Assembly: GCA_038065095.1 (NCBI GenBank)
Contig: JBBTRR010000001.1
Location: 113,546-177,545, forward strand
Length of the DNA stretch: 64,000 nucleotides
Direction of reading: 5' to 3'
From: Patescibacteria group bacterium
GTDB taxonomy: Bacteria > Patescibacteriota > Minisyncoccia > JACQLN01
Shown: positions 6,451 through 38,757 of the stretch, piece by piece
Layout: every line of letters starts with the position of its first letter
How positions within the stretch are numbered: position 1 is the stretch's first letter
Notes under the pieces: model-generated
Seen by the model: the letters and a program-made list of their open reading frames with translations, nothing else
What the model was told of the DNA's origin: nothing
The model's database searches: none
Program-made: the position numbers and the translations under genes

Positions 6451-7023
6451 ATGCTAATTGTAGTCACTGGTAATGGTAAGGGAAAGACCACGAGCGCACT
6501 TGGGCAGGCTTTAAGAGTGGTTGGCGAGGGCGGAAAGGCTGTAATGTATCAGTTTATAAAAGGGCCGTGGGTTTCGGGCGAGGATGTCCTAATCTCAAAA
6601 ATCAAATCTCAAAAATCAAAAATAAAAGACAATAAATTATTAGAGGGTCTGGAGAATTGGTATGATTTTGACATTATTAAGGGTGGCAAAGGTTTTGTTG
6701 GAATATTGGGCGATTCGTATCCAAAATCAGTTCACATCAAGGCGGCCGAAGAAACTTGGGGTGTTGCCAAAAAAGCCATAGAATCTAAAAAATACCAGTT
6801 AGTTGTTTTAGACGAAATTAATGTAGCTATAAAATTAGGCTTGTTAAAAATAAGCCCAGTATTTTCTTTTTTGAAAAAATATCGTGGAATTGTTAATATT
6901 ATGGTTACAGGGCGAGACGCCCACAATAAGCTTATAGAACTTGCTGATTTGGTTTCGGAGGTTAAAGAAATAAAGCACCCTTTTAATAAAGGTGTTTCAG
7001 CCAGAAAGGGAGTGGAGTACTAA
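6451..7023 (+). CDS. cobO: Cob(I)yrinic acid a,c-diamide / corrinoid adenosyltransferase (CobA/CobO/BtuR family)
   Basis: P-loop VVTGNGKGKTTSALGQALR..QFIKG and the C-terminal VLDEIN...TGR pattern are characteristic of CobA. The gene contains a 14-mer x2 tandem repeat at 6591-6618. Confidence 0.85.
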   Translation: MLIVVTGNGKGKTTSALGQALRVVGEGGKAVMYQFIKGPWVSGEDVLISKIKSQKSKIKDNKLLEGLENWYDFDIIKGGKGFVGILGDSYPKSVHIKAAEETWGVAKKAIESKKYQLVVLDEINVAIKLGLLKISPVFSFLKKYRGIVNIMVTGRDAHNKLIELADLVSEVKEIKHPFNKGVSARKGVEY

Positions 7024-10177: not shown

Positions 10178-10351
10178 AATGCTTGGAAGTATTAGTGGCA
10201 CGATCATAGTCGTTGGTGCAGTGGCTATATTTTTCGGAGCCTTCGATCTGTGGGTGGATAGTCCCAGTAACTGGAAAAAGATTGCCACAAAAATCGTGGG
10301 CGGTGTAGTGGTGGTCTGTATTGGCATGTTGATGAAAAAGTTCGGTTTGTA
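10178..10351 (+). CDS. Small membrane protein (57 aa)
   Basis: AGGAGG RBS lies 7 nt upstream. Product MLGSISGTIIVVGAVAIFFGAFDLW...VGGVVVVCIGMLMKKFGL. Confidence 0.45.
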
Positions 10352-17056: not shown

Positions 17057-17150
17057 AAGGGTCAAAAGGGGGTGAATGGGTCAAAAAAGGAAAATGGAAT
17101 TAAGGGGTTAAAAGGGGAAAGTAAGGGGTCAGGAAATAAAATGGGAGGCA
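17057..17150. repeat. ~94-bp polypurine (top strand) / polypyrimidine tract with repeated GGGTCA and GGGG units
   Basis: GGGTCAAAAGGGGGTGAATGGGTCAAAAAAGG...AAGGGGTCAGG. The top strand has only 3 C. On the minus strand this is a near G-free leader between tRNA-His and the GNAT-murD operon. Confidence 0.6.
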
Positions 17151-17215
17151 TATGGGACTCGAACCCATGACAACGGGTCCACAACCCGCCATGTTACCAC
17201 TACACCAATGCCTCC
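17144..17215 (-). tRNA. tRNA-His (anticodon GTG) with a genomically encoded G-1
   Basis: Folded by hand: G-1 pairs with C73. Acceptor GAGGCAT/ATGCCTC. D-stem GTGT/ACAT. Anticodon stem GCGGG/CCCGT with loop TTGTGGA. T-arm ATGGG-TTCGAGT-CCCAT. CCA is not encoded. Confidence 0.8.
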
Positions 17216-17301
17216 ATACAACTAATTTTCAATTATCAATTTACAATTTTCAATCAAAAACCAGCAACCCCAGTTTAGCTCTTTTGGCTGAAATTATCAA
17301 T

Positions 17302-17550
17302 TTATTCCTCCAGTTTCGATACCAAAGCTCCTTCGTGTATTTTCTGATCAACTTTAATACCAACAACATCCCCAGCTTTAGCCGAAGCTACACTTTTATG
17401 ATCAACCTGCATTTCTGTAACAGTTTGATTGAATTCTGTTTTTCCACTTTCTAACTTTATTTTATCGCCAGTTTTTAGAGAATCTGACAGTTTTATAATG
17501 GCTACACCTAGTTTGCCGTAGTAATGTGTTATTTTTCCGATAGGTTTCAT
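17302..17550 (-). CDS. Hypothetical small protein, beta-rich (possible EF-Tu domain-2-like barrel; low confidence)
   Basis: 82-aa ORF MKPIGKITHYYGKLGVAIIKLSDSLKTGDKIKLESGKTEF... Confidence 0.4.
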   Translation of the reverse strand: MKPIGKITHYYGKLGVAIIKLSDSLKTGDKIKLESGKTEFNQTVTEMQVDHKSVASAKAGDVVGIKVDQKIHEGALVSKLEE

Positions 17551-17626: not shown

Positions 17627-17785
17627 GTCACAACTTTTATTTTCGCCGTCGCTCAAACAAAGTCGCGACCCCACCTCACTGTGTTGTCTGCTGACAACAC
17701 ATCGTTCCGGCTTTCGATTCCTCTCTAGAAACACTTACATTCAAATCCAAACATTCCATAAATGGAATATTCGGATTTGATTATG

Positions 17786-17857
17786 TGCCCCTGGAGGGAA
17801 TCGAACCCCCATCAAGACCTTAGAAGAGTCCTGTTCTATCCATTGAACTACAAGGGC
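17786..17857 (-). tRNA. tRNA-Arg (anticodon TCT)
   Basis: Folded by hand: acceptor GCCCTTG/CAGGGGC, D-arm GTTC-AATGGATA-GAAC, anticodon stem GGACT/GGTCT with loop CTTCTAA, T-arm GGGGG-TTCGATT-CCCTC, discriminator A. Confidence 0.8.
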
Positions 17858-20585: not shown

Positions 20586-20611
20586 ATCCCCCCGACCTAG
20601 GTCGGGGGGAT
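20586..20611 (+). terminator. Rho-independent terminator after clpB
   Basis: ATCCCCCCGACC-TAGG-TCGGGGGGAT is a perfect palindromic hairpin, followed by TTTCC. Confidence 0.65.
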
Positions 20612-25249: not shown

Positions 25250-25286
25250 AACAACCCCCGCCTGATTAGGCGGGGGTTGTTTTTTA
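25250..25286 (+). terminator. Rho-independent terminator after the surface-protein gene
   Basis: AACAACCCCCGCC-TGATTA-GGCGGGGGTTGTT followed by TTTTT. Confidence 0.7.
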
Positions 25287-26094: not shown

Positions 26095-26148
26095 ACGTTA
26101 TTTCTACTCGTGGGTTATAGTTATATTCATACGGACGCATATAGCACA

Positions 26149-28545
26149 ATGAAAAAACCACGGGTTTTAATTTTTTCTTTGGCTTATTTCCCCTTAGTGG
26201 GAGGAGCCGAAATAGCCGTCAAAGAGATTACAGATCGCTTAGCTTCTCCGACGTCTGTCAGCCCCGACGTTACATCGGGGGAGCTCGGAGCCCCGACCCA
26301 TTCTGGCGTCGGGGTTGATTTTGATTTAGTAACTTTACGGTTTAATAAAAAACATTTACCAAAAGAAAAAATAGGTAATATAAATGTTTTTAGAGTTAAA
26401 GGAAGTAAATTATTTTTTCCTCTAAAATCATTATTTTTAGCTAGGAAATTACATAAACAAAATAATTATAAAGTAGTTTGGTCTATTATGACGGCTTACG
26501 CTGGTTTTGGTGTCTTATTTTTTAAGATATTAAATCCAAAAGTTAAGTTTTTATTGACACTTCAAGAAGGTGATTCAGAAAAACATATATTAAAACGTGT
26601 CGGAATATTTTATCCATTATGGAAGTATATATTTAAAAAAGCTGATTACATTCAAGTTATAAGTAATTATTTAGCCGATTTCGCCAAAAAATACGGAGCA
26701 AAATGCCCTATAGAAGTTGTGCCAAACGGGGTCAACTTAGACAAATTTAAAACCCCCTACTTCGCTAAAGCTACGCAGGGCAAGCAAAATTCAAATACCA
26801 AAACTATCATTACTACGTCTAGGTTGGTTTATAAGAATGGGGTGGATATTCTTATCAGATCAATGGCCATGCTAAAAGCTAAAAGTCCCGATAGCAAAGC
26901 TATCGAGGATCCTCGACAAGGTCGGGACTATAAACTAATTATTGTTGGTGATGGTCCAGATAGATCAAAATTAGAACAATTAACTAAGGATTTATCAGTT
27001 GATGATATAGTGCAATTTGTCGGACATGTTGATCCCAATGAAATTCCAAATTATTTATATAAAGCCGATGTTTTTGTACGGGCTTCTCGTTCAGAAGGTT
27101 TAGGTAATTCTTTTTTAGAAGCTATGGCGGCGGGTTTGCCGGTTATAGGAACTTCAGTAGGTGGAATAGTTGATTTTTTAAAAGACGGGGAAACAGGTTT
27201 TTTGGTTGAACCAGAAAATATAGAAAGTTTAACTAATAAAATAGATTGGGTTTTAAGTAATCAAGATATTTCAAAAGAAGTTGCTTTAAATGGTAAAAAT
27301 CTAATTTTTAAAAATTATTCTTGGGATGGTATATCCGAAAAAATTGGAAAAATTTTTAAAAAAAATATTGTAAATATAAGATTACTTTTAGCTACAGGTA
27401 TATATCCTCCAGATATTGGCGGGCCAGCAACATATGCCAAACTGTTAGTAGATGAATTACCTAAGAGGGGAGTTTCTATTGATGTTGTTTTTTACGGTGA
27501 TAAAGGTGTTTCAAGATCAATTCCAAAAGGAATTAGGCACATAGTTTTCTTTTTTAAATGCTTTTTTAAAGCAATTAAAAGTGATGTTGTTTTGGTTCAG
27601 GATACTATAAGCGCTGGTTTGCCGGCACTACTAGCCTCTAGATTGGCTCGTAGGAGGTTTTTAATACGCGTACCAGGGGATTACGTTTGGGAACAGTCCG
27701 TTCAACGTTTTGGGGTTAAGGACTCAATAGATGATTTTCAAAATAAAAAATATGGTTTTAAGGTGGAGTTCTTAAGAAGTATCCAAAAGTTTGTAGTTAG
27801 TAATGCTGATGTTGTTATAACACCAAGTAATTATTTTAAAGATCTAGTCAAAACTTGGGTCAAAGATAAGAATAAAGTTATTACTATATATAATGGAATA
27901 GATATAGCGACAAGCGACAAGCGACAAGCGACAAGAAATTCTAAAACAATTGTCTCGGTTGGTAGGCTAGTACCGTGGAAAGGTTTTGATATGGTTATAG
28001 AAATGATGATAGATTTACCCGATTGGAAACTTGTTATAATTGGAGATGGGCCAGAGTATAATAATCTCAAATCTCAAATTTCCCTACTTCGCCCACCCTC
28101 CGCTCAAGGCTACGACGTGGCACAGCAAGGCTCCGAAGGGCAAGCAAATTACCCCTCAATAAAACTCGGGGCAGGCAAATTACAAGATCGAGTTATACTC
28201 ACAGGTGCAATTTTGAGAGAAAAAGTTTTGGAATATCTGGCTAATTCAGAAGTATTTGTTTTAAATACTTCGTTTGAAAGTTTTTCATACCAAATAGTTG
28301 AGGCTATGGCTATGGGTATTCCCGTGGTTACTACAAACATAGGTAATATTTCGGAGATAGTTAGAGATGGAATTGATGGAGTTTTGGTTGAGCCTAACGA
28401 TAAAGATGGCTATATAAATGTTATTAAAAAAATTAATAATAATTTTGAGTTTAGAAATAGTTTAATAAAAAGTGCTATAGAAAGATCTAAGGATTTTTCT
28501 ATAGAAAGAACTTTAAATAGCTTAGTATTAGTTTTAAAAAGATGA
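26149..28545 (+). CDS. Tandem-fused double GT4 glycosyltransferase (two GT-B/GT4 modules in one ~800-aa chain)
   Basis: Module 1: VGRLVYKNGVD...IIVGDGPDRSKLEQL...EGLGNSFLEAMAAGLPVIGT. Module 2: VGRLVPWKGFD...VIIGDGPEYNNLKSQI...ESFSYQIVEAMAMGIPVVTT. It contains two GC-rich in-frame insertions and heptamer repeats at 27906 and 28064. Confidence 0.8.
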   Translation: MKKPRVLIFSLAYFPLVGGAEIAVKEITDRLASPTSVSPDVTSGELGAPTHSGVGVDFDLVTLRFNKKHLPKEKIGNINVFRVKGSKLFFPLKSLFLARKLHKQNNYKVVWSIMTAYAGFGVLFFKILNPKVKFLLTLQEGDSEKHILKRVGIFYPLWKYIFKKADYIQVISNYLADFAKKYGAKCPIEVVPNGVNLDKFKTPYFAKATQGKQNSNTKTIITTSRLVYKNGVDILIRSMAMLKAKSPDSKAIEDPRQGRDYKLIIVGDGPDRSKLEQLTKDLSVDDIVQFVGHVDPNEIPNYLYKADVFVRASRSEGLGNSFLEAMAAGLPVIGTSVGGIVDFLKDGETGFLVEPENIESLTNKIDWVLSNQDISKEVALNGKNLIFKNYSWDGISEKIGKIFKKNIVNIRLLLATGIYPPDIGGPATYAKLLVDELPKRGVSIDVVFYGDKGVSRSIPKGIRHIVFFFKCFFKAIKSDVVLVQDTISAGLPALLASRLARRRFLIRVPGDYVWEQSVQRFGVKDSIDDFQNKKYGFKVEFLRSIQKFVVSNADVVITPSNYFKDLVKTWVKDKNKVITIYNGIDIATSDKRQATRNSKTIVSVGRLVPWKGFDMVIEMMIDLPDWKLVIIGDGPEYNNLKSQISLLRPPSAQGYDVAQQGSEGQANYPSIKLGAGKLQDRVILTGAILREKVLEYLANSEVFVLNTSFESFSYQIVEAMAMGIPVVTTNIGNISEIVRDGIDGVLVEPNDKDGYINVIKKINNNFEFRNSLIKSAIERSKDFSIERTLNSLVLVLKR

Positions 28546-29332: not shown

Positions 29333-30427
29333 ATGAAAGTTTTAATGTTATCTACGGATGAGAATATTTTTAAAGAGGGTTCAGAAGTTTCCTCTCGGAT
29401 ATTAGACTACGGTAAGTTAGTAGAAGAATTACATGTAGTTGTAAAAAGTTCTCAAAAAATTAGCAAAATTGTGGGGAATGTTTTTTTATACTCCACGAAT
29501 AGTTTTGGTTTGTTTTATTTTAAAAAAGCTATAAATATTTCTAAAAAGATAGTAAGCCAAAGTGGTCGTTGGCTGATAACAGCTCAAGATCCTTTCGAAA
29601 CAGGTTTGGTTGGTTATTTAGTTAAAAGGAAATTTAATTTAACACTACAAATTCAAATTCATACAGATTTTTTAAGTTCATATTTTAAAAAAGAGTCTAT
29701 TAAAAATAAAATTAGAGTTTTTATCGCGAAAAAAATAATAAAAAAAGCTGATGGCATCAGGGTTGTTTCCGAACGAATAAAAATTTCCATAATTGTAAAT
29801 TGTAAATTAAAAATTGAAAATTCTGCGATAGCAGTGTTACCTATTTTTATAGATACCCAAAAAATAAAGAACAGTCCTATTAGTACGGATTTACACAAAA
29901 AATATCCAAATAAATTTATTATTCTTATGGCTTCTAGGCTAACCAAAGAAAAAAATATTGGGTTAGCAATAAAAGCTATGTTTGAAGTAGTCAAAACAAA
30001 TAGTCGGGCACTTCTTTTAATAGTTGGTCATGGTCCAGAATTCAATAATCTTAAGTTACAAGTTACAAGTTACAAGTTACAAGATTTTGTTGTTTTTGAA
30101 GATTGGTCTAATGATCTATCTTCATACTACAAAACTGCTGATTTATTTTTATTAACGTCCAATTATGAAGGTTATGGTATGACAATTATAGAGGCGTCTG
30201 CTGCTGGTCTGCCAGTTGTAATGACTGATGTTGGGGTTTCGGCTGGTATGGTGTCGGCTGTTGGTGATTATAAAGAAATTTCACGTAACATAGTTAATCT
30301 AATTGAAAATCCGAAAAATAAGGAGAGTGTATTAAAAAACCAAGAAAGTTTGCTTAATACATATAAAACGAAAGAAGATTACTTAGATCAATTAAAAGCT
30401 TTGTGGTCTTCTTGTTTATTTTCATAA
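29333..30427 (+). CDS. GT4 family glycosyltransferase
   Basis: SRLTKEKNIGLAI...LLIVGHGPEFNNLK...NYEGYGMTIIEASAAGLPVVMTDVG. Contains (GTTACAA)x4 at 30055-30082. Confidence 0.8.
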   Translation: MKVLMLSTDENIFKEGSEVSSRILDYGKLVEELHVVVKSSQKISKIVGNVFLYSTNSFGLFYFKKAINISKKIVSQSGRWLITAQDPFETGLVGYLVKRKFNLTLQIQIHTDFLSSYFKKESIKNKIRVFIAKKIIKKADGIRVVSERIKISIIVNCKLKIENSAIAVLPIFIDTQKIKNSPISTDLHKKYPNKFIILMASRLTKEKNIGLAIKAMFEVVKTNSRALLLIVGHGPEFNNLKLQVTSYKLQDFVVFEDWSNDLSSYYKTADLFLLTSNYEGYGMTIIEASAAGLPVVMTDVGVSAGMVSAVGDYKEISRNIVNLIENPKNKESVLKNQESLLNTYKTKEDYLDQLKALWSSCLFS

Positions 30428-30433
30428 AACTAA

Positions 30434-31483
30434 ATGAAAAATCTTTTATTCATAACTCAAAAAGTAGATAAAAATGATGATGTTTTAGGAGTGTATCATC
30501 GTTGGGCAGAAGAATTAGGAAAAAAGACAGATAAGCTCAATGTTATTTGTTTGTATAAAGGGCTGTGTGATTTAGATAAAAATATAGGCGTTTTTTCTTT
30601 GGGTAAAGAAGGTGGAATTAGCCGTATAAAATATATTTACAGATTTTATAAATATATTTTTTCAATAAGGAAAGAATATGATTCAGTTCTTGTCCATATG
30701 AATCCAGTATATATAATTCTAGGTGGAGTTTTTTGGAAAATTATGGGGAAGAAAATATTTTTATGGTACAACCATCCAATGGGTAATATGATGGCTAAAG
30801 TTGCAATATTATTTTCTAATAAGGTTTTTTGCACTTCGCCATACTCTTTTTCTGCAAAGTATAAAAAAACAGAACTTATGCCGGTGGGCATTGATACTTT
30901 TTTATTTAGATTTGACCCAAGTGTAGTTAAAAAAAACAACAGGATTTTATGTTTGGGGCGAATATCGCCCATAAAAAAAATAGAGGTTTTAATAGAGGCT
31001 GTTAAAATTTTAGATAATAAGAATATCGATTTTGAACTTTTAATTGTTGGTTCGCCAAGTTCAGATTTGGACAAGGCATATCTAGTTAGTTTAAAGGAAA
31101 TTTCTTCGGAACTGGTTTTAAAGAATAAAATAATTTTTAAACCATCAGTTCCAAATTATAAAGCTTTCGAAATATATAATTCAACTCGTATTTTTATTAA
31201 CCTAACTCCTACTGGCAGTTTTGATAAGGCCATTTTAGAAGCCATGGCTTGTGAAATTCCTGTACTTGTTTCAAATAAAACATTGCTATCTATTTTTCCT
31301 GAATCAATCAGAAATTTTTGTATTTTTAAAGAAAATGATTCACAAGAATTATCTAGAAAAATATTGGCTCTATTTTTATTAGATAACACAGGTGTTAGAG
31401 ATATTGGAAAGAAAAGTCGCGAGCTGGTTGTAGCAAATCACAGCCTAGATAGTTTAATGCAGAGTTTAATTAAGATTGTTTAA
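30434..31483 (+). CDS. GT4-like glycosyltransferase
   Basis: CLGRISPIKKIEVLIEAVK...LLIVGSPSS...GSFDKAILEAMACEIPVLVSN. Confidence 0.7.
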   Translation: MKNLLFITQKVDKNDDVLGVYHRWAEELGKKTDKLNVICLYKGLCDLDKNIGVFSLGKEGGISRIKYIYRFYKYIFSIRKEYDSVLVHMNPVYIILGGVFWKIMGKKIFLWYNHPMGNMMAKVAILFSNKVFCTSPYSFSAKYKKTELMPVGIDTFLFRFDPSVVKKNNRILCLGRISPIKKIEVLIEAVKILDNKNIDFELLIVGSPSSDLDKAYLVSLKEISSELVLKNKIIFKPSVPNYKAFEIYNSTRIFINLTPTGSFDKAILEAMACEIPVLVSNKTLLSIFPESIRNFCIFKENDSQELSRKILALFLLDNTGVRDIGKKSRELVVANHSLDSLMQSLIKIV

Positions 31484-31486
31484 AAA

Positions 31487-32887
31487 ATGCGCAATAAAAG
31501 TTTTGTAGGAAAACATGGCTCTTTGGGAGAGTTTCTTATAAAAGGTGAATCAGTTACACGTATGTGGGATTTAGTTGGTAGCGCTTTTAGTTTGATAAAC
31601 TCGTTTTTTATAATACAGGCTTTAAGCCTTTATCAATTCGGACTCTATCAGCTTGTTTTAGCTTTTATTGGACTCGTTAATAGTTTTAACCTTGATCTTT
31701 TTGATACGGTCGTTAATGTGGAAATACGCCGTTATTTTAATAGTGGAAAAATAGCTGTAGCTAAAAGAATTTTAAAAGAATATGCGGTTGTAAAAATCGT
31801 TGTAGCTATTCTTATGACCATTGGTGTTTTTTTGGGTGCAAATTTAGTTGCGCATTATTATGGATCAGATGTGGCTCAATTTATAAGAATTGCTAGTTTT
31901 ATTTTTTTAATTACTACTTTTCAGAATATAGAAATGATTGTTTTAAAAAATTCTTTTTCTATGATTTATTATAGTGCCGGAGGCATAAGGGAGGTGTTTA
32001 AGTTTTTTCTTTTATTTGGAGTTGTTTTTTATAGCTATCTAGATATATCTAAAATTTTAGTTATTCATATACTAGGTTTGCTTGGTTCTCTTGTTTTTAC
32101 CAGTTTTTTCTTTTGGCGTATTTATAGCAATCTTTGGTTAAAAGTTATTTCGGCTAAAGGTTTTTTCCTTAATGGTTTGGCTAAGGCCCATGGGAAATGG
32201 GTTTCGTTACGTTTCCTACTGGCTAAATTTTCTTCTGGCAACATAAATCCTTGGCTTATTAAATTTTTTATTAACACGGAAGCTGTAGCTATTTATTTTT
32301 TAGCCTATAACTTAGTAGCCTTTATTCAGGAATTTTTTCCAGTTAATGCTCTTTCATGGATATTTTTAATGAAGATAGATGATAAAAATGAGATGGGGTA
32401 TATTTTTAAACGCTCGGCTAAATATTTGTTTTGGTTTGGTGTTTTGGCAGGGTTATTTTCTTTAGCGGCTGTGCCATGGATTGTTAATATAATTTTCCCT
32501 AAATTCCATGACGCTTGGCCGATTTTTAAAGTTATGTTGGTGGTGTTTCCGATTTTTGGGGTCTACAAAATAATTAAAGAGGTTTTGAGTACTTTAAGAG
32601 AATATAAAACCCTGACATTGAGAATGCCAATAGAATCATTGGTAAACTTAATTTTCTTAGCGGTACTTTTGCCTTTATTTGGGCTTATGGGAGCGGCTAT
32701 AGCATATGTTGCCGTGTATGTAGCTAGAATTTTATTTTTTTATCCTGCCCTGATTCGTCTGCATCCAAATTTTAAAATAAAAACGAAAGATATTTTTAGT
32801 TTTAATGATGATGATATAATTTTTATCAAAAAAATATATCAAAAGTTTCTATCTACATTTCGCTCTTTTTTCTTAAGATATAGATAG
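31487..32887 (+). CDS. Polytopic membrane protein, polysaccharide-biosynthesis/flippase (Wzx/MOP-like) candidate
   Basis: 466 aa with about 12 hydrophobic helices. No catalytic motifs seen. The context is GT genes. Confidence 0.5.
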   Translation: MRNKSFVGKHGSLGEFLIKGESVTRMWDLVGSAFSLINSFFIIQALSLYQFGLYQLVLAFIGLVNSFNLDLFDTVVNVEIRRYFNSGKIAVAKRILKEYAVVKIVVAILMTIGVFLGANLVAHYYGSDVAQFIRIASFIFLITTFQNIEMIVLKNSFSMIYYSAGGIREVFKFFLLFGVVFYSYLDISKILVIHILGLLGSLVFTSFFFWRIYSNLWLKVISAKGFFLNGLAKAHGKWVSLRFLLAKFSSGNINPWLIKFFINTEAVAIYFLAYNLVAFIQEFFPVNALSWIFLMKIDDKNEMGYIFKRSAKYLFWFGVLAGLFSLAAVPWIVNIIFPKFHDAWPIFKVMLVVFPIFGVYKIIKEVLSTLREYKTLTLRMPIESLVNLIFLAVLLPLFGLMGAAIAYVAVYVARILFFYPALIRLHPNFKIKTKDIFSFNDDDIIFIKKIYQKFLSTFRSFFLRYR

Positions 32888-33608
32888 CATTGTAAGCCCA
32901 TCTTTTTTCTAGTTCTTTTTTTATTTTTATAGAAATTTTACCAGCAATGTCATATATTAATTTTCTTAGTTTGCCTTTTAAGTTATTACTAAAAACTTTA
33001 TCTCTGATATGATATTCTATGGCTATTACTTCAAAATATTTCAAAATAGCTTTTTTAATAATATTTTGAGTGAATATTACTAAATGGTTATTTGATTCTT
33101 TATAACTTCCAAAATCTCTCATATTAGTAAAATAGCTAATACTAGCCTTTGAAAGTATATTAGGAACAGAGAATATAAATAATCCATTTGGTTCCAATAC
33201 TCGATGTGTTTCTCGAACACAATGAAAGGGATTCTCTAAGTGAGGTAAAACACACCAAGCTGTTACCACTTTAAAAGAGTTATCTGGCCAAGGGGTTTTA
33301 TCAAAGCTTAAATCAGCGGTTTTAAATTCTTTTAAAAGAGGTTTGTTTTGAAGGGAAAGATAGTTATCTATATCAATACCGTAAACATTTTTATAGCCCT
33401 TTTTGTTGAGTTGTTGAGCAAAGTTGCCACTGGCTGGCCCAATATCGAGTATGTTACAATTTTTGTCCCAATTTGATTGTAATATATGGTTAGAGGTTAA
33501 GTTTAAAGCAAAGAAGTTGCGAAGATTTTTACCTATGTGATTCTGTAATTGTTTCTTTATTTCTTCTTTATTTTCAATTTTTATTTCGTGTGGATTAAAG
33601 TATTGCAT
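32853..33608 (-). CDS. Class I SAM-dependent methyltransferase; paralog of 34960-35718
   Basis: ILDIGPASGNFAQQL, DLSFDKTPWPDNSFKVVTAWCVLPHLENPFHCVRETHRVLEPNGLFIF. About 70% identical over the core to the downstream plus-strand copy. Confidence 0.7.
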   Translation of the reverse strand: MQYFNPHEIKIENKEEIKKQLQNHIGKNLRNFFALNLTSNHILQSNWDKNCNILDIGPASGNFAQQLNKKGYKNVYGIDIDNYLSLQNKPLLKEFKTADLSFDKTPWPDNSFKVVTAWCVLPHLENPFHCVRETHRVLEPNGLFIFSVPNILSKASISYFTNMRDFGSYKESNNHLVIFTQNIIKKAILKYFEVIAIEYHIRDKVFSNNLKGKLRKLIYDIAGKISIKIKKELEKRWAYNAIYILRKKSEM

Positions 33609-33634
33609 AAAATGTATTAATAATTGTTTTTGAT

Positions 33635-34987
33635 ATGACTATATTTATTTCTTGTTTTTTTAATTTAGTTGCGAGAAATGTTTTACATACAAAGTTTTTT
33701 GAATATTTAAAAAAAACGAAGGGTTACAGGATTATTTTACTTGTGCCTAAAATTAATGCTGATGCTTTTAAAAAAGAATTTTCTAATACTAACATAATTA
33801 TAGAATCAGTTCATTTTTTGCCTATGTCTAAAATTAATTTGTTATTTCACTGGTTGTCCTGGAACCTGCTCAATACTAAAAGTAAAAAAATTCATAAAAT
33901 AGTCCAGTTTGGAAAAGATTCTAATAGGCTTATGTATATGTTTACATCCTTTTTGGGTTGGTTGGGGGGATACAAAATAATCAGAAAAATCTTTAGAAAG
34001 CTAGATTATTGGTTGGTGCCCAGGGGTATGTTTGACTACTTATTTAACAAATATAAACCCGATATGGTTTTGGCCACAGATATACAGGATTTAAGGGTTC
34101 AAGAGCTATGTGATACATCGTTGGTCAGAGAGGCTAAAAGAAGGGGTATCTACAGTATGGGTATGGGTAGGTCTTGGGATAGTATGACCACCAAAGGCCT
34201 GTTAAGAACATTGCCAACTAAACTGGTTGTGCAGAGTGTTTCTATTAAGGATCAGGCTGTAAGGTATCACAGCGTTGACTCTGAACAGATTGTTGTAACT
34301 GGTACTTTGCATTACGATAAATATGTTTTAGATGAACGCACGTCTAGAGAAACTTTTTTTAGAGAACTAGGTTTTGACCCATCTAAAAAACTAATTCTTC
34401 TTACCATCCCTAGTGATATTTGGACAGGCAACGCTTCTCTTAGCCATTATTTGCTTAATATATTTTCTCAATTGAACGATCAAATAATTGTTCGTTTTCC
34501 ATTATTTGGTAAAGTTGATATTGGAGATTTTAAACCAGCTCAAACGATGGTTTTTGATAATCCATATAATTCTGATCGTTTGGAAGAATCTCGTTTAAGT
34601 ATAAGCGACGATGATCATTTGGCCGACTTAATATATCATAGTGATGTTGTTGTGACTGGCCCGTCGAGTATAATATTAGATGCGTCAATTTTTAATAAGC
34701 CGATAGTTTTGATAGGTTTTGATGGTGAAGAAGCTAGGCCATATGGGCAGAGTATGGCCAGATATTATGATTATGAACATCAACAATTAGCTATTTTATC
34801 GGGTGGAATGAAAGTAGCTAAAGATAGAGATCAATTAATAAATCTAGTTTTAGAATACCTAGCAAATCCAGATTTAGATAATAAAGGTCGTCGGCAAGTA
34901 GCAGAAAATATTTGTTTCAAACTAGATGGCCAATCGGGTTTGCGATTGGCTCAATTAATATGGAATACCTTAACCCCGAAGAAATAA
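33635..34987 (+). CDS. GT-B-fold transferase, paralog family member 1 of 4 (TagB/TagF-like CDP-polyol phosphotransferase motif resemblance)
   Basis: SWDSMTTKG mid-motif. C-terminal VVVTGPSSIILDASIFNKPIVLIGFDG resembles the TagF DYSSVxFDFxxLxKPxIFF pattern. VRFPLFG resembles the HP motif. Confidence 0.55.
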   Translation: MTIFISCFFNLVARNVLHTKFFEYLKKTKGYRIILLVPKINADAFKKEFSNTNIIIESVHFLPMSKINLLFHWLSWNLLNTKSKKIHKIVQFGKDSNRLMYMFTSFLGWLGGYKIIRKIFRKLDYWLVPRGMFDYLFNKYKPDMVLATDIQDLRVQELCDTSLVREAKRRGIYSMGMGRSWDSMTTKGLLRTLPTKLVVQSVSIKDQAVRYHSVDSEQIVVTGTLHYDKYVLDERTSRETFFRELGFDPSKKLILLTIPSDIWTGNASLSHYLLNIFSQLNDQIIVRFPLFGKVDIGDFKPAQTMVFDNPYNSDRLEESRLSISDDDHLADLIYHSDVVVTGPSSIILDASIFNKPIVLIGFDGEEARPYGQSMARYYDYEHQQLAILSGGMKVAKDRDQLINLVLEYLANPDLDNKGRRQVAENICFKLDGQSGLRLAQLIWNTLTPKK

Positions 34988-35718
34988 TAACCTCTAGAAA
35001 AAACATAAAAGAAAAACTAAGTAAATTTGTTGGTCCGACGATAAGACACAAATCTGGTATTAAGTTTTTTTCTAAATATGCAGATATTTTTTTAGTTCAG
35101 TACAATCATTTAAAAGAAGATATTAAGGTTCTTGATTGTGGAGTTGCTGGTGGAGGTTTCGCAAAAGATCTTTATGAGGCCGGCTATAAAAACATCTACG
35201 GTGTTGATATTGATGACTATTTATCTCCAGACAATAGACCTCTTATTAAAGAATTTAAAACTGCCGATTTAAGTTTCGATAAGATTCCTTGGCCAGATAG
35301 TTATTTTAAGGTTGTTACAGCTTGGTGTGTTTTACCGCATTTGGAGAATCCACATAACTTTATTAGAGAAACTTACAGAGTTCTTGAGCCGGGTGGTTTA
35401 TATATAATTTCTTTAGTCAATATAATTTCTTGGCCCAATAGAAAATATTTTATGATTCATAAAGAATTTCCTTCTTATCACGCTAGTAATAATCATATTA
35501 CACTTTTTACTCCGGCAATTTTTAAAAAGACCATTTTAAAATATTTTGATTTAGTAGGTACAGAGTATTTTATAACTCCAAGAATTTTTTATGGATTTAA
35601 AGGTAATATCAGAAAATATGTACTAAATTTTTTGTATTTTTTAAATAATTCACTCGGAGAATTACTATATGCACGTTGGGGCGCTAAGATAGTTTATATT
35701 TTAAAAAAGAAGAACTAG
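34960..35718 (+). CDS. Class I SAM-dependent methyltransferase; paralog of 32853-33608
   Basis: VLDCGVAGGGFAKDL, DLSFDKIPWPDSYFKVVTAWCVLPHLENPHNFIRETYRVLEPGGLYII. Start set at MEYLNPEE by alignment with the paralog's MQYFNPHE. Confidence 0.7.
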   Translation: MEYLNPEEIITSRKNIKEKLSKFVGPTIRHKSGIKFFSKYADIFLVQYNHLKEDIKVLDCGVAGGGFAKDLYEAGYKNIYGVDIDDYLSPDNRPLIKEFKTADLSFDKIPWPDSYFKVVTAWCVLPHLENPHNFIRETYRVLEPGGLYIISLVNIISWPNRKYFMIHKEFPSYHASNNHITLFTPAIFKKTILKYFDLVGTEYFITPRIFYGFKGNIRKYVLNFLYFLNNSLGELLYARWGAKIVYILKKKN

Positions 35719-35719
35719 C

Positions 35720-37174
35720 TTATTTTTTAATTATTTTATATATACTAACTTCTGGATTTTTATAAACTAATTCGAATTTATCTTTTTTATCAAAATTAGT
35801 TTTACTAAATTGTTTTTCCCATGGACCATAGTATATAAAATCGGCATCAATTTTTTCTAGATCAATAGGTATTTGGTCATAGTTTTTTATCAAATTAGTT
35901 ATATATTCTTTGGTTATATGTTTAGGATCGGCTAAATATTTGTTAATGGAACCTATTCGAAAATAATGGAAATAAAGATGCCAAAGATTTTTTCGTAGGT
36001 TTTGATCGGTATTAGGAGGACATAGTTCTTTGGAACAATCTATATTAAGAGTACCTGTTAATTGCTTTTCAATAGTCTCAGAATTAACATTAAAAATTTT
36101 GTTAGTTAATAAAAATCTTTTTTCTAATTCGTCGGTAGTTTTAGTGGTTAAATTGCCTAGTGGCAAAAAAGGCCGAGCCGATGTATAGGCGCCTAGGTAT
36201 AAAGAAGTCATAAACGAATTTGAGATTATTTTTGGTTCTGGTTTTAGATCTGCGTTAATCCATTCCCAAGATTCTTTTATGCTTTGTGAAAATTTATAAT
36301 TTTCCTGAATTCTAATTTCGGGATTATTTTTAATTACAAAGACATTAACTATTTTTTTTGATACAACCACTAAAGTTAGAATAACTAAGGTAATTGTTAC
36401 TATCTTTTTAACTTGTGAGCTTTTTATAGTAAATCTGGATGATAGTTCATAACAGATCATTCCAATTATTATAAATAAAAGAGGGCTGATGGTTCTTCTA
36501 AAATTATTAGGAGCAGGCACAAAACCTGTAATCAACTGGATATTCCAAATTAAGGTGGCAGATGTTAAAAAACTCCAAATGAGTATTGTTTTTAGACGGT
36601 CTTTATGCCAAAAAACTTTATAAGCTATTAATGCTAAGACTATATAAAAAATATAATCAAAGCCGAGTTCGGCAAGTCCTGGTTCTCTGCCTTCTGCTAT
36701 TCCGAGGCGATGCGTGTAGTCTGCTGATGCATTTGATTTAGAGAAGTTTAGGTAATTAATAAAATATGGAGTAGCAATTAATGTTAATGTTGCTATTAAT
36801 AAAATAAAATTTTTGAAACGAGCATTATTCCGGTGTTCGAAAATTAATGTATATAAAAAAAGTAGTGAAATTACTATTACCCAATAAACCCAATAATGAA
36901 AATAAAAATAAAATAATAATCCTGCTGGTATGGCGGCACCCAGGGCGTTTAGTTTGGTGGGTTTTTGCCAAAAATATATTAAGCCAGCGATAGCCAGAAT
37001 AAAAATAGGAAAGACAAATAATGGATAATCAAATCTGGCAAAGTAAAGTTTTTCTATTTGAGTATTTATTCCCGGAAAAAATTGTTTTACAAAATAGCCC
37101 AGAAACTCTCTAAAAGTTTCTTTTAGACCATCGGAACCTGTATCAGTAAAAATTTGTTGTAGTTTAAGCTCCAT
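35720..37174 (-). pseudogene. GT-C (ArnT/PMT-like) membrane glycosyltransferase, C-terminal ~485-aa part of a frameshift-split copy; paralog of 54110-55948
   Basis: YFARFDYPLFVFPIF...HYWVYWVIV and the C-terminal ADFIYYGPWEKQFSKTNFDKKDKFELVYKNPEVSIYKIIKK align to the intact paralog. It continues the 37164-37625 ORF in a different frame. Confidence 0.6.
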
Positions 37175-37625
37175 CAAAATTTAAAATTCTTAAAGCAATA
37201 GGCGTAAGAATTCCAATATATGCAAAAAGTAAAGACCAAATAAATGATCTATTAAACAAAATGCGACCCAGTAAGAAAAATAATAAAAATATTATTAAAG
37301 AAAATATAAATACCGCCGATAAATATGAAGTGACTACATTGCCATCAAACACAGTTAGAAAGGTAGTCATTATTAGCGAAGGGATAGCATTTAATACTGT
37401 TTTACCCTGATCATCAAAGTAAATATCTACGGGTGGCCAGTGTCCATCGTATATTTCTCTGGCTCGGTTCATATATATAAGTTCATCACGGTGTATTGCG
37501 TAATTAAGAACAAAGGGTTGTTCTTTTGCTTCAAATTGCTGTTTAATTACAAGAGGTGGCAGAATGTATAGAATTCCAACCAGAATAGATGATCCAGCAA
37601 TGACTAATATTTTTGCTAGTTTCAT
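37164..37625 (-). pseudogene. GT-C (ArnT/PMT-like) membrane glycosyltransferase, N-terminal 153-aa part of the split copy
   Basis: HRDELIYMNRAREIYDGHWPPVDIYF carries the DE loop-1 motif of GT-C enzymes. It overlaps the downstream part by 11 nt, out of frame. Confidence 0.6.
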
Positions 37626-37695
37626 TAGTTATAATATCTAAATTTACTTAGTATTTATAACAGAATTGCTAAAAATTGACAAGTAGTTTTCTATT

Positions 37696-38757
37696 ATGAA
37701 AATTTGCTATTTAAATAATGACCTAAATAATAAAACCGGTTCAGGTCGATTTTGTTTAGCTCTTGTACAATCATTGAATAAACTAATTCCTGCTTTTAAT
37801 TATAAGGTAGTAACCTTGGAGAGTATATCTTTAAAAAAGCCTTTTGGACTATTTTATTTTTTAATACGTTTAAGAAAAATACTAAAAGATTTTGATATTG
37901 TTCACGCTTTGGATGGCTGGCCCCATGGTTTTTTAGCTACATTGGCGACAATTGGATTAAAGAAAAAAGTGATTATAACTTTGATTGGAACTGGGTCAAT
38001 ACAACCAATGTATCATTTCCCTCATAAATTAATTATGAAGTGGGTTTATAAACGAGCCGATAGGTTGGTAGCTGTTAGTCAAAATACAAAAAAAGAAATC
38101 CTTAAAATTATTCCCAGTTTAAAAATTGAAGTTATAAATCATGGAGTAGACTTTGATAAATATCAAACATTAAATATTAAAAATAAAAATGATGCAGAAA
38201 TCCAGAGACTTAAACCTTATATTTTAAGCGTGGGAACATTAAAAAAAAGAAAGGGTTATGAATATTCCGTTCGGGCTTTTGCAGAAGTTGCAGAAAAATT
38301 TCCAGAATTAAAATATGTAATTGTAGGACAAGGCCATGAAGAAGAAAATCTCAAATCTCAAATCTCAAAACTAAAAATAGAAGATAAAATTATTTTTTTA
38401 AATTATTTGTCGGAGGAATTTTTGGTGGCTTTGTATCACAATGCTGAATTGTTTATTTTATTATCTCAAGATAATGGCAAAGACATAGAAGGTTTCGGTT
38501 TGGTTTTTTTGGAAGCTGCCTCTTGTGGTTTACCGATTGTAGCTACGTTAGAGACTGGAGCGGCAGATGCTGTTAGTGATGGTAAAAACGGTATATTGGT
38601 TCCAACAAGAGACAGTCATAAAGCTACTCAAGCTATAATTAAGATATTATTAAATTCCAATTTAAAAAATTCTTTTTCAGAATCGTCTTTAGAATTTGCT
38701 AAATCCATGAATTGGGAAAAGGTAGCTGATTCCTACTTTAAAATATATAAATTTTAA
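37696..38757 (+). CDS. GT4 family glycosyltransferase
   Basis: VGTLKKRKGYEY...VIVGQGHEEENLKSQISKLKI...EGFGLVFLEAASCGLPIVAT. Contains (AAATCTC)x3 at 38346-38366. Confidence 0.8.
   Translation: MKICYLNNDLNNKTGSGRFCLALVQSLNKLIPAFNYKVVTLESISLKKPFGLFYFLIRLRKILKDFDIVHALDGWPHGFLATLATIGLKKKVIITLIGTGSIQPMYHFPHKLIMKWVYKRADRLVAVSQNTKKEILKIIPSLKIEVINHGVDFDKYQTLNIKNKNDAEIQRLKPYILSVGTLKKRKGYEYSVRAFAEVAEKFPELKYVIVGQGHEEENLKSQISKLKIEDKIIFLNYLSEEFLVALYHNAELFILLSQDNGKDIEGFGLVFLEAASCGLPIVATLETGAADAVSDGKNGILVPTRDSHKATQAIIKILLNSNLKNSFSESSLEFAKSMNWEKVADSYFKIYKF

What the first reader, a model, noticed from the sequence alone, without database searches (positions are those of the whole stretch)
29333..38757. Heptanucleotide tandem repeats inside three GT4 glycosyltransferase genes: candidate phase-variation (contingency) loci
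(GTTACAA)x4 lies at 30055-30082 in GT4 29333-30427. (AAATCTC)x3 lies at 38346-38366 in GT4 37696-38757. (AGCGACA)x4 lies at 27906-27933 and (AATCTCA)x2 at 28064-28077 in the double GT4.

The repeat unit is 7 nt. Gain or loss of one unit by slipped-strand mispairing would shift the frame and switch the transferase off or on.

The first two arrays occupy the same protein position (right after G.GPE..NLK) in paralogous GT4 domains but use unrelated heptamers. A related 14-mer x2 (AATCTCAAAAATCA) sits in cobO at 6591-6618.

The 17-nt string AATCTCAAATCTCAAAT is identical in two GT genes whose flanking DNA has diverged.

Established knowledge: phase-variable surface glycosylation through such SSRs is well known in host-associated bacteria (Neisseria, Haemophilus, Campylobacter). 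It would be a novel observation in this type of organism.
Basis: seen in the sequence. Interest (0 to 1): 0.72.

Follow-up and report, generated by a model that had tools for sequence, protein, structure and literature searches.

The report
Heptamer repeats inside CPR glycosyltransferase genes
Three sugar-transferase (GT4) genes of an uncultivated groundwater Patescibacterium carry short in-frame 7-base tandem repeats; such repeats occur across its relatives almost only in GT4 genes, and they can break the gene by losing units, yet they are nearly always found in the working frame.

Summary
The three longest perfect tandem repeats in the 64-kb window are heptamers, and all lie in GT4 genes: (AGCGACA)x4.3, (AAGTTAC)x4.4 and (AAATCTC)x3.4. 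Three arrays of at least 21 nt were found against 0.003 expected.

The pattern is clade-wide. In 1.24 Mb from 80 related Parcubacteria/Paceibacteria genomes, 56 of the 57 perfect heptamer arrays of at least 3 units lie in GT4-like ORFs (p=5e-31); the other is intergenic. Hexamers and nonamers gave none. The arrays span about 31 nt and reach 5.3 units at most. They sit in the variable loops and helix ends of the fold. Their length is conserved between orthologues, while the unit sequence changes in concert.

The phase-variation reading is only partly supported.
- For it: gain or loss of 1-2 units truncates the enzymes, and in one relative a 2-unit (14-nt) deletion allele splits a GT4 gene.
- Against it: none of 245 arrays in 81 genomes is out of frame, whereas 65.6% of neuO genomes are OFF.
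- Against it: the tracts are short, and no polymorphism was seen in the window organism, including a strain 99.64% identical over 21 kb.

Best reading: these are slippage-made, self-homogenising coding microsatellites that act at most as low-rate frameshift switches. I found no published description.

The parts
26110..28545 (+). Double-module GT4 glycosyltransferase ORF (811 aa from GTG; called as 798 aa in public records). It hosts two heptamer arrays and several GC-rich in-frame patches.
   Evidence: ORF list, translation. Pfam Glycos_transf_1 4.9e-77 with three matched stretches, plus Glyco_transf_4.
27906..27935 (+). Perfect (AGCGACA)x4.3 array encoding ATSDKRQATR. It lies in the linker after NGID of the second module (profile position about 178).
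   Evidence: The L003 orthologue has an AGAGACA-type array of the same length, which is a concerted unit change. Gain or loss of 1 unit gives products of 613-617 aa instead of 811.
28063..28079 (+). (AATCTCA)x2.4 remnant of an array after GDGPEYNNLK, cut short by the GC-rich insert that follows.
   Evidence: In L003 an uninterrupted (TCAAATA)x3.9 array occupies this site.
28080..28166 (+). An 87-nt (29-codon) GC-rich in-frame insertion inside the array site. It is flanked by CAAAT on both sides and is absent from the orthologue in L003.
   Evidence: Pairwise alignment shows an 87-nt gap. No other copy in the window or in the 80 loci. No significant DNA fold, z = -0.25.
29333..30427 (+). GT4 glycosyltransferase ORF (364 aa; MEK7629039.1-type). 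It hosts two arrays.
   Evidence: Pfam. Exact protein found on 6 Hainich groundwater contigs. AF2 model with pLDDT 93.4.
29791..29822 (+). Imperfect (AATTGTA/AATTGAA)x4.6 array encoding IIVNCKLKIENS (end of helix 147-156 plus loop). A perfect version would contain in-frame TAA or TGA.
   Evidence: Identity to L003 is 31/32, against 72% in the flanks.
30053..30083 (+). Perfect (AAGTTAC)x4.4 array encoding KLQVTSYKLQ. It covers the C-terminal part of helix 237-246 and the loop before strand 253-256, just after GHGPEFNNL.
   Evidence: Gain or loss of 1 unit gives products of 257-271 aa that lack E279-X7-E287. Identical in all strain variants.
37696..38757 (+). GT4 glycosyltransferase ORF (353 aa).
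   Evidence: Pfam Glycos_transf_1 2e-42 and Glyco_transf_4. On 10 contigs.
38346..38369 (+). Perfect (AAATCTC)x3.4 array encoding NLKSQISK, at the same fold position (profile position about 241) as 30053-30083.
   Evidence: Gain or loss of 1 unit gives products of 223-232 aa. Unchanged in strain L093.
6591..6620 (+). (AATCTCAAAAATCA)x2.1, a degenerate heptamer array inside the CobA/CobO/BtuR adenosyltransferase gene. It is the best-scoring period-7 or period-14 array found outside a GT4 gene.
17224..17254 (.). Imperfect (AATTTTC)x4.4 array in the tRNA-His/tRNA-Arg spacer. It is the reverse complement of the AATTGAA/AATTGTA family.
   Evidence: My ORF caller lists an overlapping 100-aa ORF (17152-17451), which I take to be spurious.

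Best explanation
The arrays are short in-frame heptanucleotide microsatellites, and they are a lineage-wide hallmark of GT4 glycosyltransferase genes in Parcubacteria/Paceibacteria (CPR).

**Proposed mechanism**
- Heptamer-biased slipped-strand mispairing, or out-of-register conversion, creates the arrays and keeps re-homogenising them.
- They sit in the seven or so variable loop and helix-end positions of the GT-B fold. Selection for the reading frame and for loop length holds them at about 31 nt (3-5 units).
- Because the unit is 7 nt, loss or gain of one or two units truncates the enzyme before its catalytic and donor-binding parts. Three units change it by 7 residues.
- The arrays are therefore frameshift hot spots that can switch a GT4 OFF, and in principle back ON, at a low rate.

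In almost every sampled genome, including this window, they sit in the ON frame. They do not behave like the high-frequency switches of Neisseria, Haemophilus or neuO.

**Shown and inferred**
- Shown: existence, GT4 restriction, size limit, in-frame state, concerted evolution, and one natural 2-unit OFF allele in a relative.
- Inferred: slippage as the generating process, reversibility, and any benefit of switching.
For: - **Period specificity.** Perfect arrays of at least 3 units in 1.24 Mb, by period: 7 nt gave 54, 6 nt gave 0, 5 nt gave 1, 8 nt gave 3, and 9 nt or more gave 0.
- **Host specificity.** With the window's three included, 56 of 57 such arrays lie in ORFs, and all 56 hosts are GT4-like. 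GT4-like ORFs are 28.8% of coding DNA (p=5e-31).
  - TRF counts for periods 7/14/21 are 198/66/8 in GT4 ORFs against 36/8/8 weak ones elsewhere. Other periods follow the coding share.
  - Density per kb is 0.45 in GT4, 0.12 in unassigned DNA and 0.006 in other ORFs.
  - Pfam confirmed 10 of 10 tested hosts.
  - The window's GT2, Glyphos_transf and methyltransferase genes have no perfect heptamer run of 16 nt or more.
- **Size.** Median span 31 nt, interquartile range 27-33.
- **Frame.** All 245 arrays are in frame.
- **Concerted evolution without length change.**
  - Identity between units of one array is 0.61. Between positionally orthologous units of different genomes it is 0.43. Flanks are 0.62 and the lag-7 background is 0.28.
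  - Segment length is identical in 57 of 72 orthologues, with single -7 aa and +7 aa variants.
  - Examples: AGCGACA against AGAGACA, and TCGCTAC against CAAGCTT, each at the same length.
- **Natural OFF allele.** A 14-nt (2-unit) deletion with identical flanks was the only indel in about 21 kb of population contigs.
- **In-silico truncation** of all three window GT4s.
- **Structure.** The arrays lie at the end of a helix and run into the loop that follows.
- **Heptamer bias.** Heptamers are reported as over-represented among bacterial SSRs, and a polymerase-footprint slippage bias has been proposed (PMC4692102).
Against: - No unit-number variation was seen at the window's own arrays or in about 60 full-length strain variants of 10 orthologue clusters.
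- Only one OFF allele was found, against roughly 43 ON contigs of that cluster. It is in a relative and in the longest array seen.
- Slippage alone does not explain why arrays are about 4 times denser in GT4 genes than in unassigned or intergenic DNA.
- It also does not explain why GT2 and other glycan genes lack them.
- Reversion from OFF to ON was not observed.
- MAG consensus sequences hide minority variants, so the real switching rate is unknown.
Confidence: 0.5

Rival explanations
1. Non-adaptive by-product. Heptamer-biased slippage or conversion makes arrays everywhere. They persist only where frameshift intermediates and odd loop peptides are tolerated, which means the loops of a large, redundant, fast-evolving GT4 paralogue family. 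They are inherited through gene duplication. OFF alleles are simply deleterious mutations, and there is no switching function.
For: - All 245 arrays are in frame, and lengths are conserved between orthologues.
- Many arrays are decaying or interrupted.
- Arrays also occur in intergenic DNA, at 0.12-0.2 per kb, and once in cobO.
- Units that would create stops are patched only minimally, so perfect runs stop at 20 nt.
- Arrays occupy exactly the positions that are variable in the family consensus.
Against: - GT4 density exceeds that of intergenic DNA about 4-fold, whereas a neutral process should peak in non-coding DNA.
- Other dispensable genes of the same clusters have none.
- Perfect arrays persist at one site across orthologues that are only 45-70% identical, which needs strong continuing homogenisation.
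Confidence: 0.33
2. Classical high-frequency contingency loci. The arrays would switch the GT4s ON and OFF rapidly, so that populations are mixtures, as in Neisseria, Haemophilus, Campylobacter or E. coli K1 neuO.
For: - Non-triplet unit inside surface-glycan genes, and truncation on slippage.
- One natural OFF allele.
- A small-genome, probably host-dependent lifestyle; this point rests on established knowledge of CPR bacteria and was not tested here.
Against: - None of 245 arrays is OFF, against 65.6% OFF for neuO.
- Tracts reach 5.3 units at most, against 3-53 for neuO and 13-38 for the H. influenzae hmw arrays.
- No in-frame or out-of-frame copy variants in about 60 strain variants or in the window's strains.
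Confidence: 0.07
3. Cassette spread. The roughly 31-nt arrays, and the GC-rich palindromes found inside them, would be copied between GT4 paralogues by ectopic gene conversion or by a small mobile insert that targets these loops, rather than being made in place.
For: - The same 17-mer occurs in two diverged GT4 genes of the window.
- The same unit families turn up at different fold sites and in intergenic DNA.
- In-frame GC-rich palindromes of 20-21 nt and an 87-nt insert sit inside arrays.
- Short contigs switch to unrelated DNA exactly at arrays.
Against: - There are 82 distinct units among 141 perfect runs, so there is no common cassette.
- The 87-nt insert has no second copy.
- GC-rich islands in general are not GT4-specific, at 33% against a 29% coding share.
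- Unit changes differ by 1-2 nt steps between orthologues, which fits in-situ turnover.
Confidence: 0.07
4. Protein-level or compositional artefact. The arrays would reflect selection for a heptad or amphipathic helix, or mere AT-rich low complexity.
For: At the site after G.GPE the peptide (L..I..L) fits an amphipathic helix. The units are AT-rich, with mean GC 0.29.
Against: - Perfect 7-nt periodicity extends to synonymous positions.
- The encoded peptides are very diverse and include Pro-rich ones such as YPKPYTLYPIPYT.
- Shuffles give 0.003 expected against 3 observed.
- Other equally AT-rich genes have none.
Confidence: 0.03

Closest known systems
neuO O-acetyltransferase of E. coli K1 phage CUS-3 (heptanucleotide AAGACTC coding repeat)
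   Same: A heptanucleotide repeat lies inside a coding sequence of a surface-glycan-modifying enzyme. It is read in all three frames as a 7-residue repeat, and the full-length product is made only when the unit count keeps the frame (PMC13001214).
   Different: - neuO has a single 5' array of 3-53 units, and 65.6% of complete genomes are OFF.
- Here there are 3-5.3 units, up to 7 arrays per gene at internal loops, none of 245 is OFF, and length is conserved between relatives.
Simple-sequence contingency loci of Haemophilus influenzae (including heptanucleotide SSRs at hmw1A/hmw2A and TonB-dependent receptor genes)
   Same: Heptanucleotide tracts whose unit number changes by slippage, some of them intragenic and frame-shifting (PMC2651432).
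   Different: - Those tracts are long (up to 38 units), differ between strains and are often promoter-located.
- They occur in host-adapted pathogens and in several gene classes.
- Here the tracts are short, stable between strains, and restricted to one enzyme family in free-living or episymbiotic groundwater CPR bacteria.
Heptameric SSR over-representation in bacteria: cyanobacterial tandem heptanucleotides and Xanthomonas/Nostoc GGGAATC-type repeats
   Same: A period-7 bias among longer SSRs, with a proposed link to the polymerase footprint (PMC4692102).
   Different: Those repeats are mostly intergenic, G-rich and of one sequence family per genome. Here the arrays are coding, AT-rich, made of 82 or more different units, and confined to GT4 genes.
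Neisseria pglE pilin-glycosylation glycosyltransferase with a CAAACAA coding repeat
   Same: A heptanucleotide repeat inside a glycosyltransferase gene that gives phase-variable glycan structure.
   Different: As I recall it, this is a single array with variable and often high copy number in a host-restricted pathogen. Copy numbers and ON/OFF proportions were not verified here.

Membership tests
SSR contingency (phase-variation) loci | Tandem repeat with a unit that is not a multiple of 3, inside an ORF or promoter | tested here: met
   7-nt units inside three GT4 ORFs.
SSR contingency (phase-variation) loci | A change in unit number shifts the frame and abolishes the product | tested here: met
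   In silico, gain or loss of 1-2 units truncates the product 0-53 codons after the array. The natural 2-unit deletion allele splits a GT4 in L092.
SSR contingency (phase-variation) loci | Unit-number polymorphism among closely related strains or populations at the locus in question | tested here: not met
   The window arrays are identical in L001, L002, L093 (99.64% identity, 0 indels) and L094, and in the listed protein variants that cover the arrays. Only assembled consensus sequences were available, not reads.
SSR contingency (phase-variation) loci | Unit-number polymorphism somewhere in the array class | tested here: met
   One case: (AAATCTC)x5.3 against x3.3 with identical flanks. None in about 60 other full-length strain variants. 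The JGI scan returned only 2 contigs, both with 5.3 units.
SSR contingency (phase-variation) loci | ON and OFF alleles both common among sequenced genomes | tested here: not met
   None of 245 arrays is out of frame in 81 genomes. The benchmark is neuO at 65.6% OFF.
SSR contingency (phase-variation) loci | Long, hypermutable tract with a broad copy-number range | tested here: not met
   Maximum 5.3 units (37 nt). Median span 31 nt, interquartile range 27-33.
SSR contingency (phase-variation) loci | Measured reversible switching rate well above the background mutation rate | not testable with these tools
   This needs read-level data or a culture or reporter assay.
SSR contingency (phase-variation) loci | Association with surface-structure or host-interaction genes | tested here: met
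   All 56 ORF-embedded arrays are in GT4 genes of glycan clusters.
GT4 glycosyltransferases (GT-B fold, Pfam Glycos_transf_1) | Pfam Glycos_transf_1 / Glyco_transf_4 above the gathering score | tested here: met
   for all three window hosts. for 10 of 10 hosts in relatives.
GT4 glycosyltransferases (GT-B fold, Pfam Glycos_transf_1) | Alternating strand-helix (Rossmann-type) architecture in both halves, and an E-X7-E motif in the C-terminal domain | tested here: met
   The AF2 model has pLDDT 93.4 with alternating strand and helix in both halves. E279 is invariant and E287 nearly invariant. No fold search was run.
NeuO-type translated heptad VNTR | A single N-terminal array of many heptanucleotide units whose number tunes activity | tested here: not met
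   The arrays are internal, reach 5.3 units at most, and number up to 7 per gene.
Intergenic heptamer repeats (cyanobacterial tandem heptanucleotides, Xanthomonas/Nostoc G-rich type) | Intergenic location and one G-rich unit family per genome | tested here: not met
   The arrays are coding, AT-rich (mean GC 0.29), and made of 82 distinct units.

The most novel reading that the evidence does not exclude
GT4-restricted, self-homogenising heptamer arrays are a selected evolvability device of CPR/Patescibacteria. On this reading each of the many GT4 paralogues carries one to seven low-rate frameshift switches. Large populations of these regulator-poor, probably episymbiotic cells would then always hold cells with altered surface glycans, ready for phage escape or host switching. 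This would be the first contingency-locus system described outside host-adapted pathogens, and it would be lineage-wide and confined to one enzyme family.
Probability: 0.3. Interest if true: 0.85.

Novelty: new variant of a known kind. Interest (0 to 1): 0.68.

Why it matters
- **Link to an open question.** CPR bacteria make up a large share of bacterial diversity. They have tiny genomes and few regulators, and how they vary their surfaces towards hosts and phages is unknown. A repeat class found almost only in their GT4 surface-glycan genes bears directly on that question.
- **Scale.** About 270 arrays were found in 120 of 296 GT4 genes across 81 genomes.
- **Testable now.** Public read sets already exist, so counting unit-number variants at known coordinates is a direct test.
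- **Evolutionary interest.** This is a clean natural example of concerted evolution of a coding microsatellite under a frame and length constraint.
- **Practical consequences.**
  - The arrays, and the GC-rich palindromes inside them, break or chimerise short-read assemblies at GT4 genes.
  - The odd peptides seen in CPR proteins (KLQATSYKLQ, NLKSQISNLK, RIKNQESRIKN) are explained as heptamer arrays read in three frames.

Tried and rejected
1. **Split ORFs of the window's GT4s.** I looked for OFF alleles among split ORFs on a 199-kb contig. They break at poly-A homopolymers, not at arrays.
2. **Truncated members of orthologue clusters.**
   - P0180 is broken by a homopolymer frameshift.
   - P0159 has a roughly 64-aa out-of-frame internal deletion that runs from the end of the profile-160 array to just before the G.G motif; no DNA was fetched to check it.
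   - P0153 and P0175 lie on short contigs (L083, L084) that switch to unrelated DNA exactly at an array plus palindrome. These are probably chimeras, and I did not count them as OFF alleles.
3. **JGI metagenome scan** with flanks around the 5.3-unit array. It returned only 2 contigs, both with 5.3 units, so it was uninformative.
4. **GC-rich islands as a GT4-specific partner element.** Rejected: 33% fall in GT4 genes, against a 29% share of coding DNA.
5. **The 87-nt insert as a repeated mobile element or a structured DNA.** No second copy was found, and the fold z-score is -0.25.
6. **A common repeat sequence or binding motif.** Rejected: there are 82 distinct units.
7. **Literature searches** on CPR/Patescibacteria with phase variation, tandem repeats or heptanucleotides found nothing relevant.
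8. **The 432- and 440-aa variants of the Tagabacteria GT4.** These run on past the stop position of the 384-aa form (probably a changed stop codon) and are unrelated to the arrays.

Full report
**1. Observation.**
- The perfect arrays are (AGCGACA)x4.3 at 27906-27935, (AATCTCA)x2.4 at 28063-28079, (AAGTTAC)x4.4 at 30053-30083 and (AAATCTC)x3.4 at 38346-38369.
- A 14-mer x2.1 lies at 6591-6620.
- The hosts are ORFs 26110-28545 (two GT4 modules), 29333-30427 and 37696-38757. All are Glycos_transf_1/GT4 by Pfam. The 14-mer lies in a CobA_CobO_BtuR gene.
- The three longest perfect tandem repeats of any period from 4 to 15 in the window are these heptamers.
- Triplet shuffles give 0.003 expected runs of at least 21 nt, against 3 observed.

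**2. Organism.** The exact proteins occur on Hainich groundwater contigs and are labelled Patescibacteria group bacterium. The window (34.6% GC) carries a large glycan-biosynthesis region. It includes GT2, Glyphos_transf, UDP-glucose dehydrogenase, a polysaccharide deacetylase and several methyltransferases.

**3. The pattern is clade-wide.** Among 120 orthologues of GT4 29333-30427 (46-72% identity), most show a 7-residue periodicity right after G.GPE. The peptides differ: KLQVTSYKLQ, KLQITNYKLQ, KSQISNLKLQ, KFKIKNLKL, ELRIKNYEL, QLTTYNLQL, KLLATRYSL. I then fetched 80 loci from GTDB species representatives, 1.24 Mb in total.
- Perfect arrays of at least 3 units, by period: 7 nt gave 54, 4 nt gave 27 (12-nt runs, short enough that some are expected by chance), 5 nt gave 1, 6 nt gave 0, 8 nt gave 3, and 9 nt or more gave 0. 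The longest was 35 nt.
- With the window included, 56 of 57 arrays lie inside ORFs. All 56 hosts match a profile built from the orthologues. GT4-like ORFs are only 28.8% of coding DNA (binomial p=5e-31).
- In non-GT4 ORFs, period-7 runs die out at 17 nt. In GT4 ORFs there is a heavy tail out to 35 nt.
- TRF finds 198, 66 and 8 arrays of period 7, 14 and 21 in GT4 ORFs, against 36, 8 and 8 weak ones in other ORFs. All other periods follow the coding share.
- Density per kb (score at least 46) is 0.452 in GT4, 0.116 in unassigned or intergenic DNA, and 0.006 in other ORFs.
- 120 of 296 GT4-like ORFs carry 1-7 arrays.
- Pfam confirmed 10 of 10 sampled hosts.

**4. Anatomy.**
- Arrays recur at about seven positions of the GT4 profile: roughly 41, 80-95, 155-172, 180-199, 215-233, 240-266 and 363-386. 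These are the positions where the family consensus is variable.
- In the AF2 model of 29333-30427 (pLDDT 93.4), the AAGTTAC array encodes the C-terminal part of helix 237-246 and the loop before strand 253-256. The AATTGTA array encodes the end of helix 147-156 and the loop that follows.
- Spans are tight: median 31 nt, interquartile range 27-33, 95th percentile 39.
- There are 82 distinct units among 141 perfect runs, so no sequence motif is shared.
- 47 of those 141 runs have units that contain a stop codon in one cyclic frame. Such arrays are patched once per 21 nt. This explains a spike of perfect runs at 20 nt and the many period-14 arrays.

**5. Tests of the phase-variation idea.**

*In favour:*
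- Gain or loss of 1-2 units truncates the window's GT4s 0-53 codons after the array. For the arrays after G.GPE this falls before E279-X7-E287. Gain or loss of 3 units changes the product by 7 residues.
- Units evolve in concert. At the site after G.GPE, in 57 orthologues of equal segment length, identity between units of one array is 0.61. Between positionally orthologous units of different genomes it is 0.43. Flanks are 0.62 and the lag-7 background is 0.28.
  - The window has AGCGACA x4.3 where L003 has an AGAGACA-type array of the same length.
  - L013 has TCGCTAC x4.7 where L022 has CAAGCTT x4.3.
- There is a natural OFF allele. A Tagabacteria GT4 (L086 1312-2466, minus strand) holds (AAATCTC)x5.3, the longest perfect array seen. 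Contig L092, from another assembly with a neighbouring ENA accession, lacks exactly 14 nt (2 units). The flanks are identical over more than 250 nt, and the gene is split into 272 + 114 aa.
- Across about 21 kb of 99.5-99.96% identical contigs of that population, this was the only indel.

*Against:*
- Of 245 arrays (TRF score at least 34) in GT4 ORFs, 239 have at least 25 codons open upstream and 40 downstream. The other 6 lie at natural C-termini, a contig edge or a probable start. None is out of frame.
- For the bona fide heptanucleotide switch neuO, unit numbers range from 3 to 53, and 65.6% of 64 complete genomes are OFF (PMC13001214). H. influenzae heptanucleotide tracts reach 13-38 units (PMC2651432).
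- About 60 full-length strain variants in 10 orthologue clusters show no internal indel.
- In the window organism the arrays are identical in four other contigs. These include strain L093 at 99.64% identity over 21 kb, with 76 SNPs and no indel.
- The nearest genome in the set, L003 (about 76% identity), has arrays of the same length at the three orthologous sites compared.
- Segment length after G.GPE is the same in 57 of 72 orthologues, with one -7 aa and one +7 aa variant.

**6. Interpretation.** The arrays are DNA-level features. Periodicity extends to synonymous positions, and the encoded peptides are unrelated to each other. Something keeps homogenising them without changing their length, and they can lose whole units and break the gene.

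- They are not high-frequency switches. They are short, stable between strains, and in frame in every consensus genome examined.
- The best-supported reading is slippage- or conversion-driven coding microsatellites, held at about 31 nt by selection for frame and loop length, that act at most as low-rate frameshift switches of GT4 genes (confidence 0.5).
- The main rival is that they are non-adaptive passengers, tolerated only in the loops of a redundant paralogue family (0.33).
- The restriction to GT4 is what a neutral account explains least well. Density is 4 times that of unassigned DNA, and GT2 and other glycan genes have none.
- The absence of OFF consensus alleles is what an adaptive account explains least well.
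- The published suggestion that heptamers are favoured by the polymerase footprint (as cited in PMC4692102) would account for the period.

**7. Known comparators and novelty.** SSR frameshift switching of glycan genes is well known, and translated heptanucleotide repeats are known from neuO. New here:
- the host lineage (CPR groundwater bacteria);
- the near-exclusive restriction to one enzyme family;
- multiple arrays per gene at fixed fold positions;
- the size ceiling;
- length-neutral concerted evolution.

Searches of the paper library for CPR/Patescibacteria with phase variation, tandem repeats or heptanucleotides found nothing. I rate it a new variant of a known kind, interest 0.68.

**8. 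Limits.**
- Only assembled consensus sequences were available, with no reads, so minority variants are invisible.
- The one OFF allele is in a relative, not in the window organism.
- The loci were chosen around one GT4 orthologue, so gene families not found near it are unsampled.
- GT4 assignment of most hosts rests on my own profile, with Pfam checks on a sample.

Noticed in passing
window 28080-28166, with related patches at about 26753-26790, 26240-26310 and 26885-26925: GC-rich in-frame patches sit at the same loop positions that carry heptamer arrays in other genes. The 87-nt one splits an array and is absent from the L003 orthologue. The patches at 26753-26790 and 28082-28150 share CCCTACTTCGC...GGGCAAGCAAA. 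The origin is unknown.
   Followed up: partly
L085 about 725-745, L007 about 10265-10285, L012 about 8939, L079 about 7421 (also proteins P0090, P0099, P0014): GC-rich palindromes of 20-21 nt (CCTGCCTGCCGGCAGGCAGG, CATGCCTACCGGCAGGCAGGC) are inserted in frame inside heptamer arrays of different units and at different fold sites. This looks like a small hairpin element that lands in arrays.
   Followed up: partly
L083 about 1560 onward; L084 about 1100 onward: Short JGI contigs are identical to a GT4 gene up to an array plus palindrome and then continue into unrelated DNA (in L084 apparently a gatB-like gene, judged by eye). This is either an assembly chimera at the repeat or a real rearrangement.
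   Followed up: partly
window 17224-17254: An imperfect heptamer array lies in the spacer between tRNA-His (17143-17214) and tRNA-Arg (17785-17857). It is the reverse complement of the AATTGAA/AATTGTA family seen inside GT4 29333-30427. It matches the L003 GT4 array at 29/31 positions although the flanks are unrelated.
   Followed up: partly
window 6591-6620: The cobO-type adenosyltransferase carries a degenerate heptamer array (LISKIKSQKSKIK). The protein is 18 residues longer than the Pfam profile it matches end to end, so the array may be an insertion. It is the best-scoring period-7 or period-14 array found outside GT4 genes.
   Followed up: partly
proteins P0059 and P0072; loci L024, L050 and L061: Two orthologues (P0059, P0072) carry an extra PF13366 (PD-(D/E)XK-type) domain. 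Separately, three loci have GT4 matches about 500 nt longer than usual, which suggests an inserted or fused module. Whether the two observations coincide was not checked.
   Followed up: no
proteins P0124/P0125 and P0131/P0133 (a 199,481-nt ENA contig of the window organism): On this one contig two of the window's GT4 genes are split into fragments. One break examined is a frameshift at an A-run. This may be homopolymer assembly or sequencing error, or real poly-A variation. It was not at heptamers.
   Followed up: partly
proteins P0186, P0188 and P0192-P0194 (Tagabacteria GT4 cluster): Variants of 432 and 440 aa continue 48 residues past the stop position of the 384-aa form, and several contigs carry them. 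This is probably a changed stop codon; the DNA was not examined.
   Followed up: no
window 20587-20610 and 25255-25276: Perfect GC-rich hairpins (TCCCCCCGACCTAGGTCGGGGGGA, CCCCCGCCTGATTAGGCGGGGG) lie in intergenic DNA after the ClpB-like gene and after the 1263-aa PG_binding_1 protein gene. They are probably terminators.
   Followed up: no
L007 3248-3284: An intergenic (TTATAAG)x5.3 array lies just upstream of a gene start. Its repeated TATAAG motifs resemble stacked -10 boxes, so it might be a promoter-spacing repeat.
   Followed up: no
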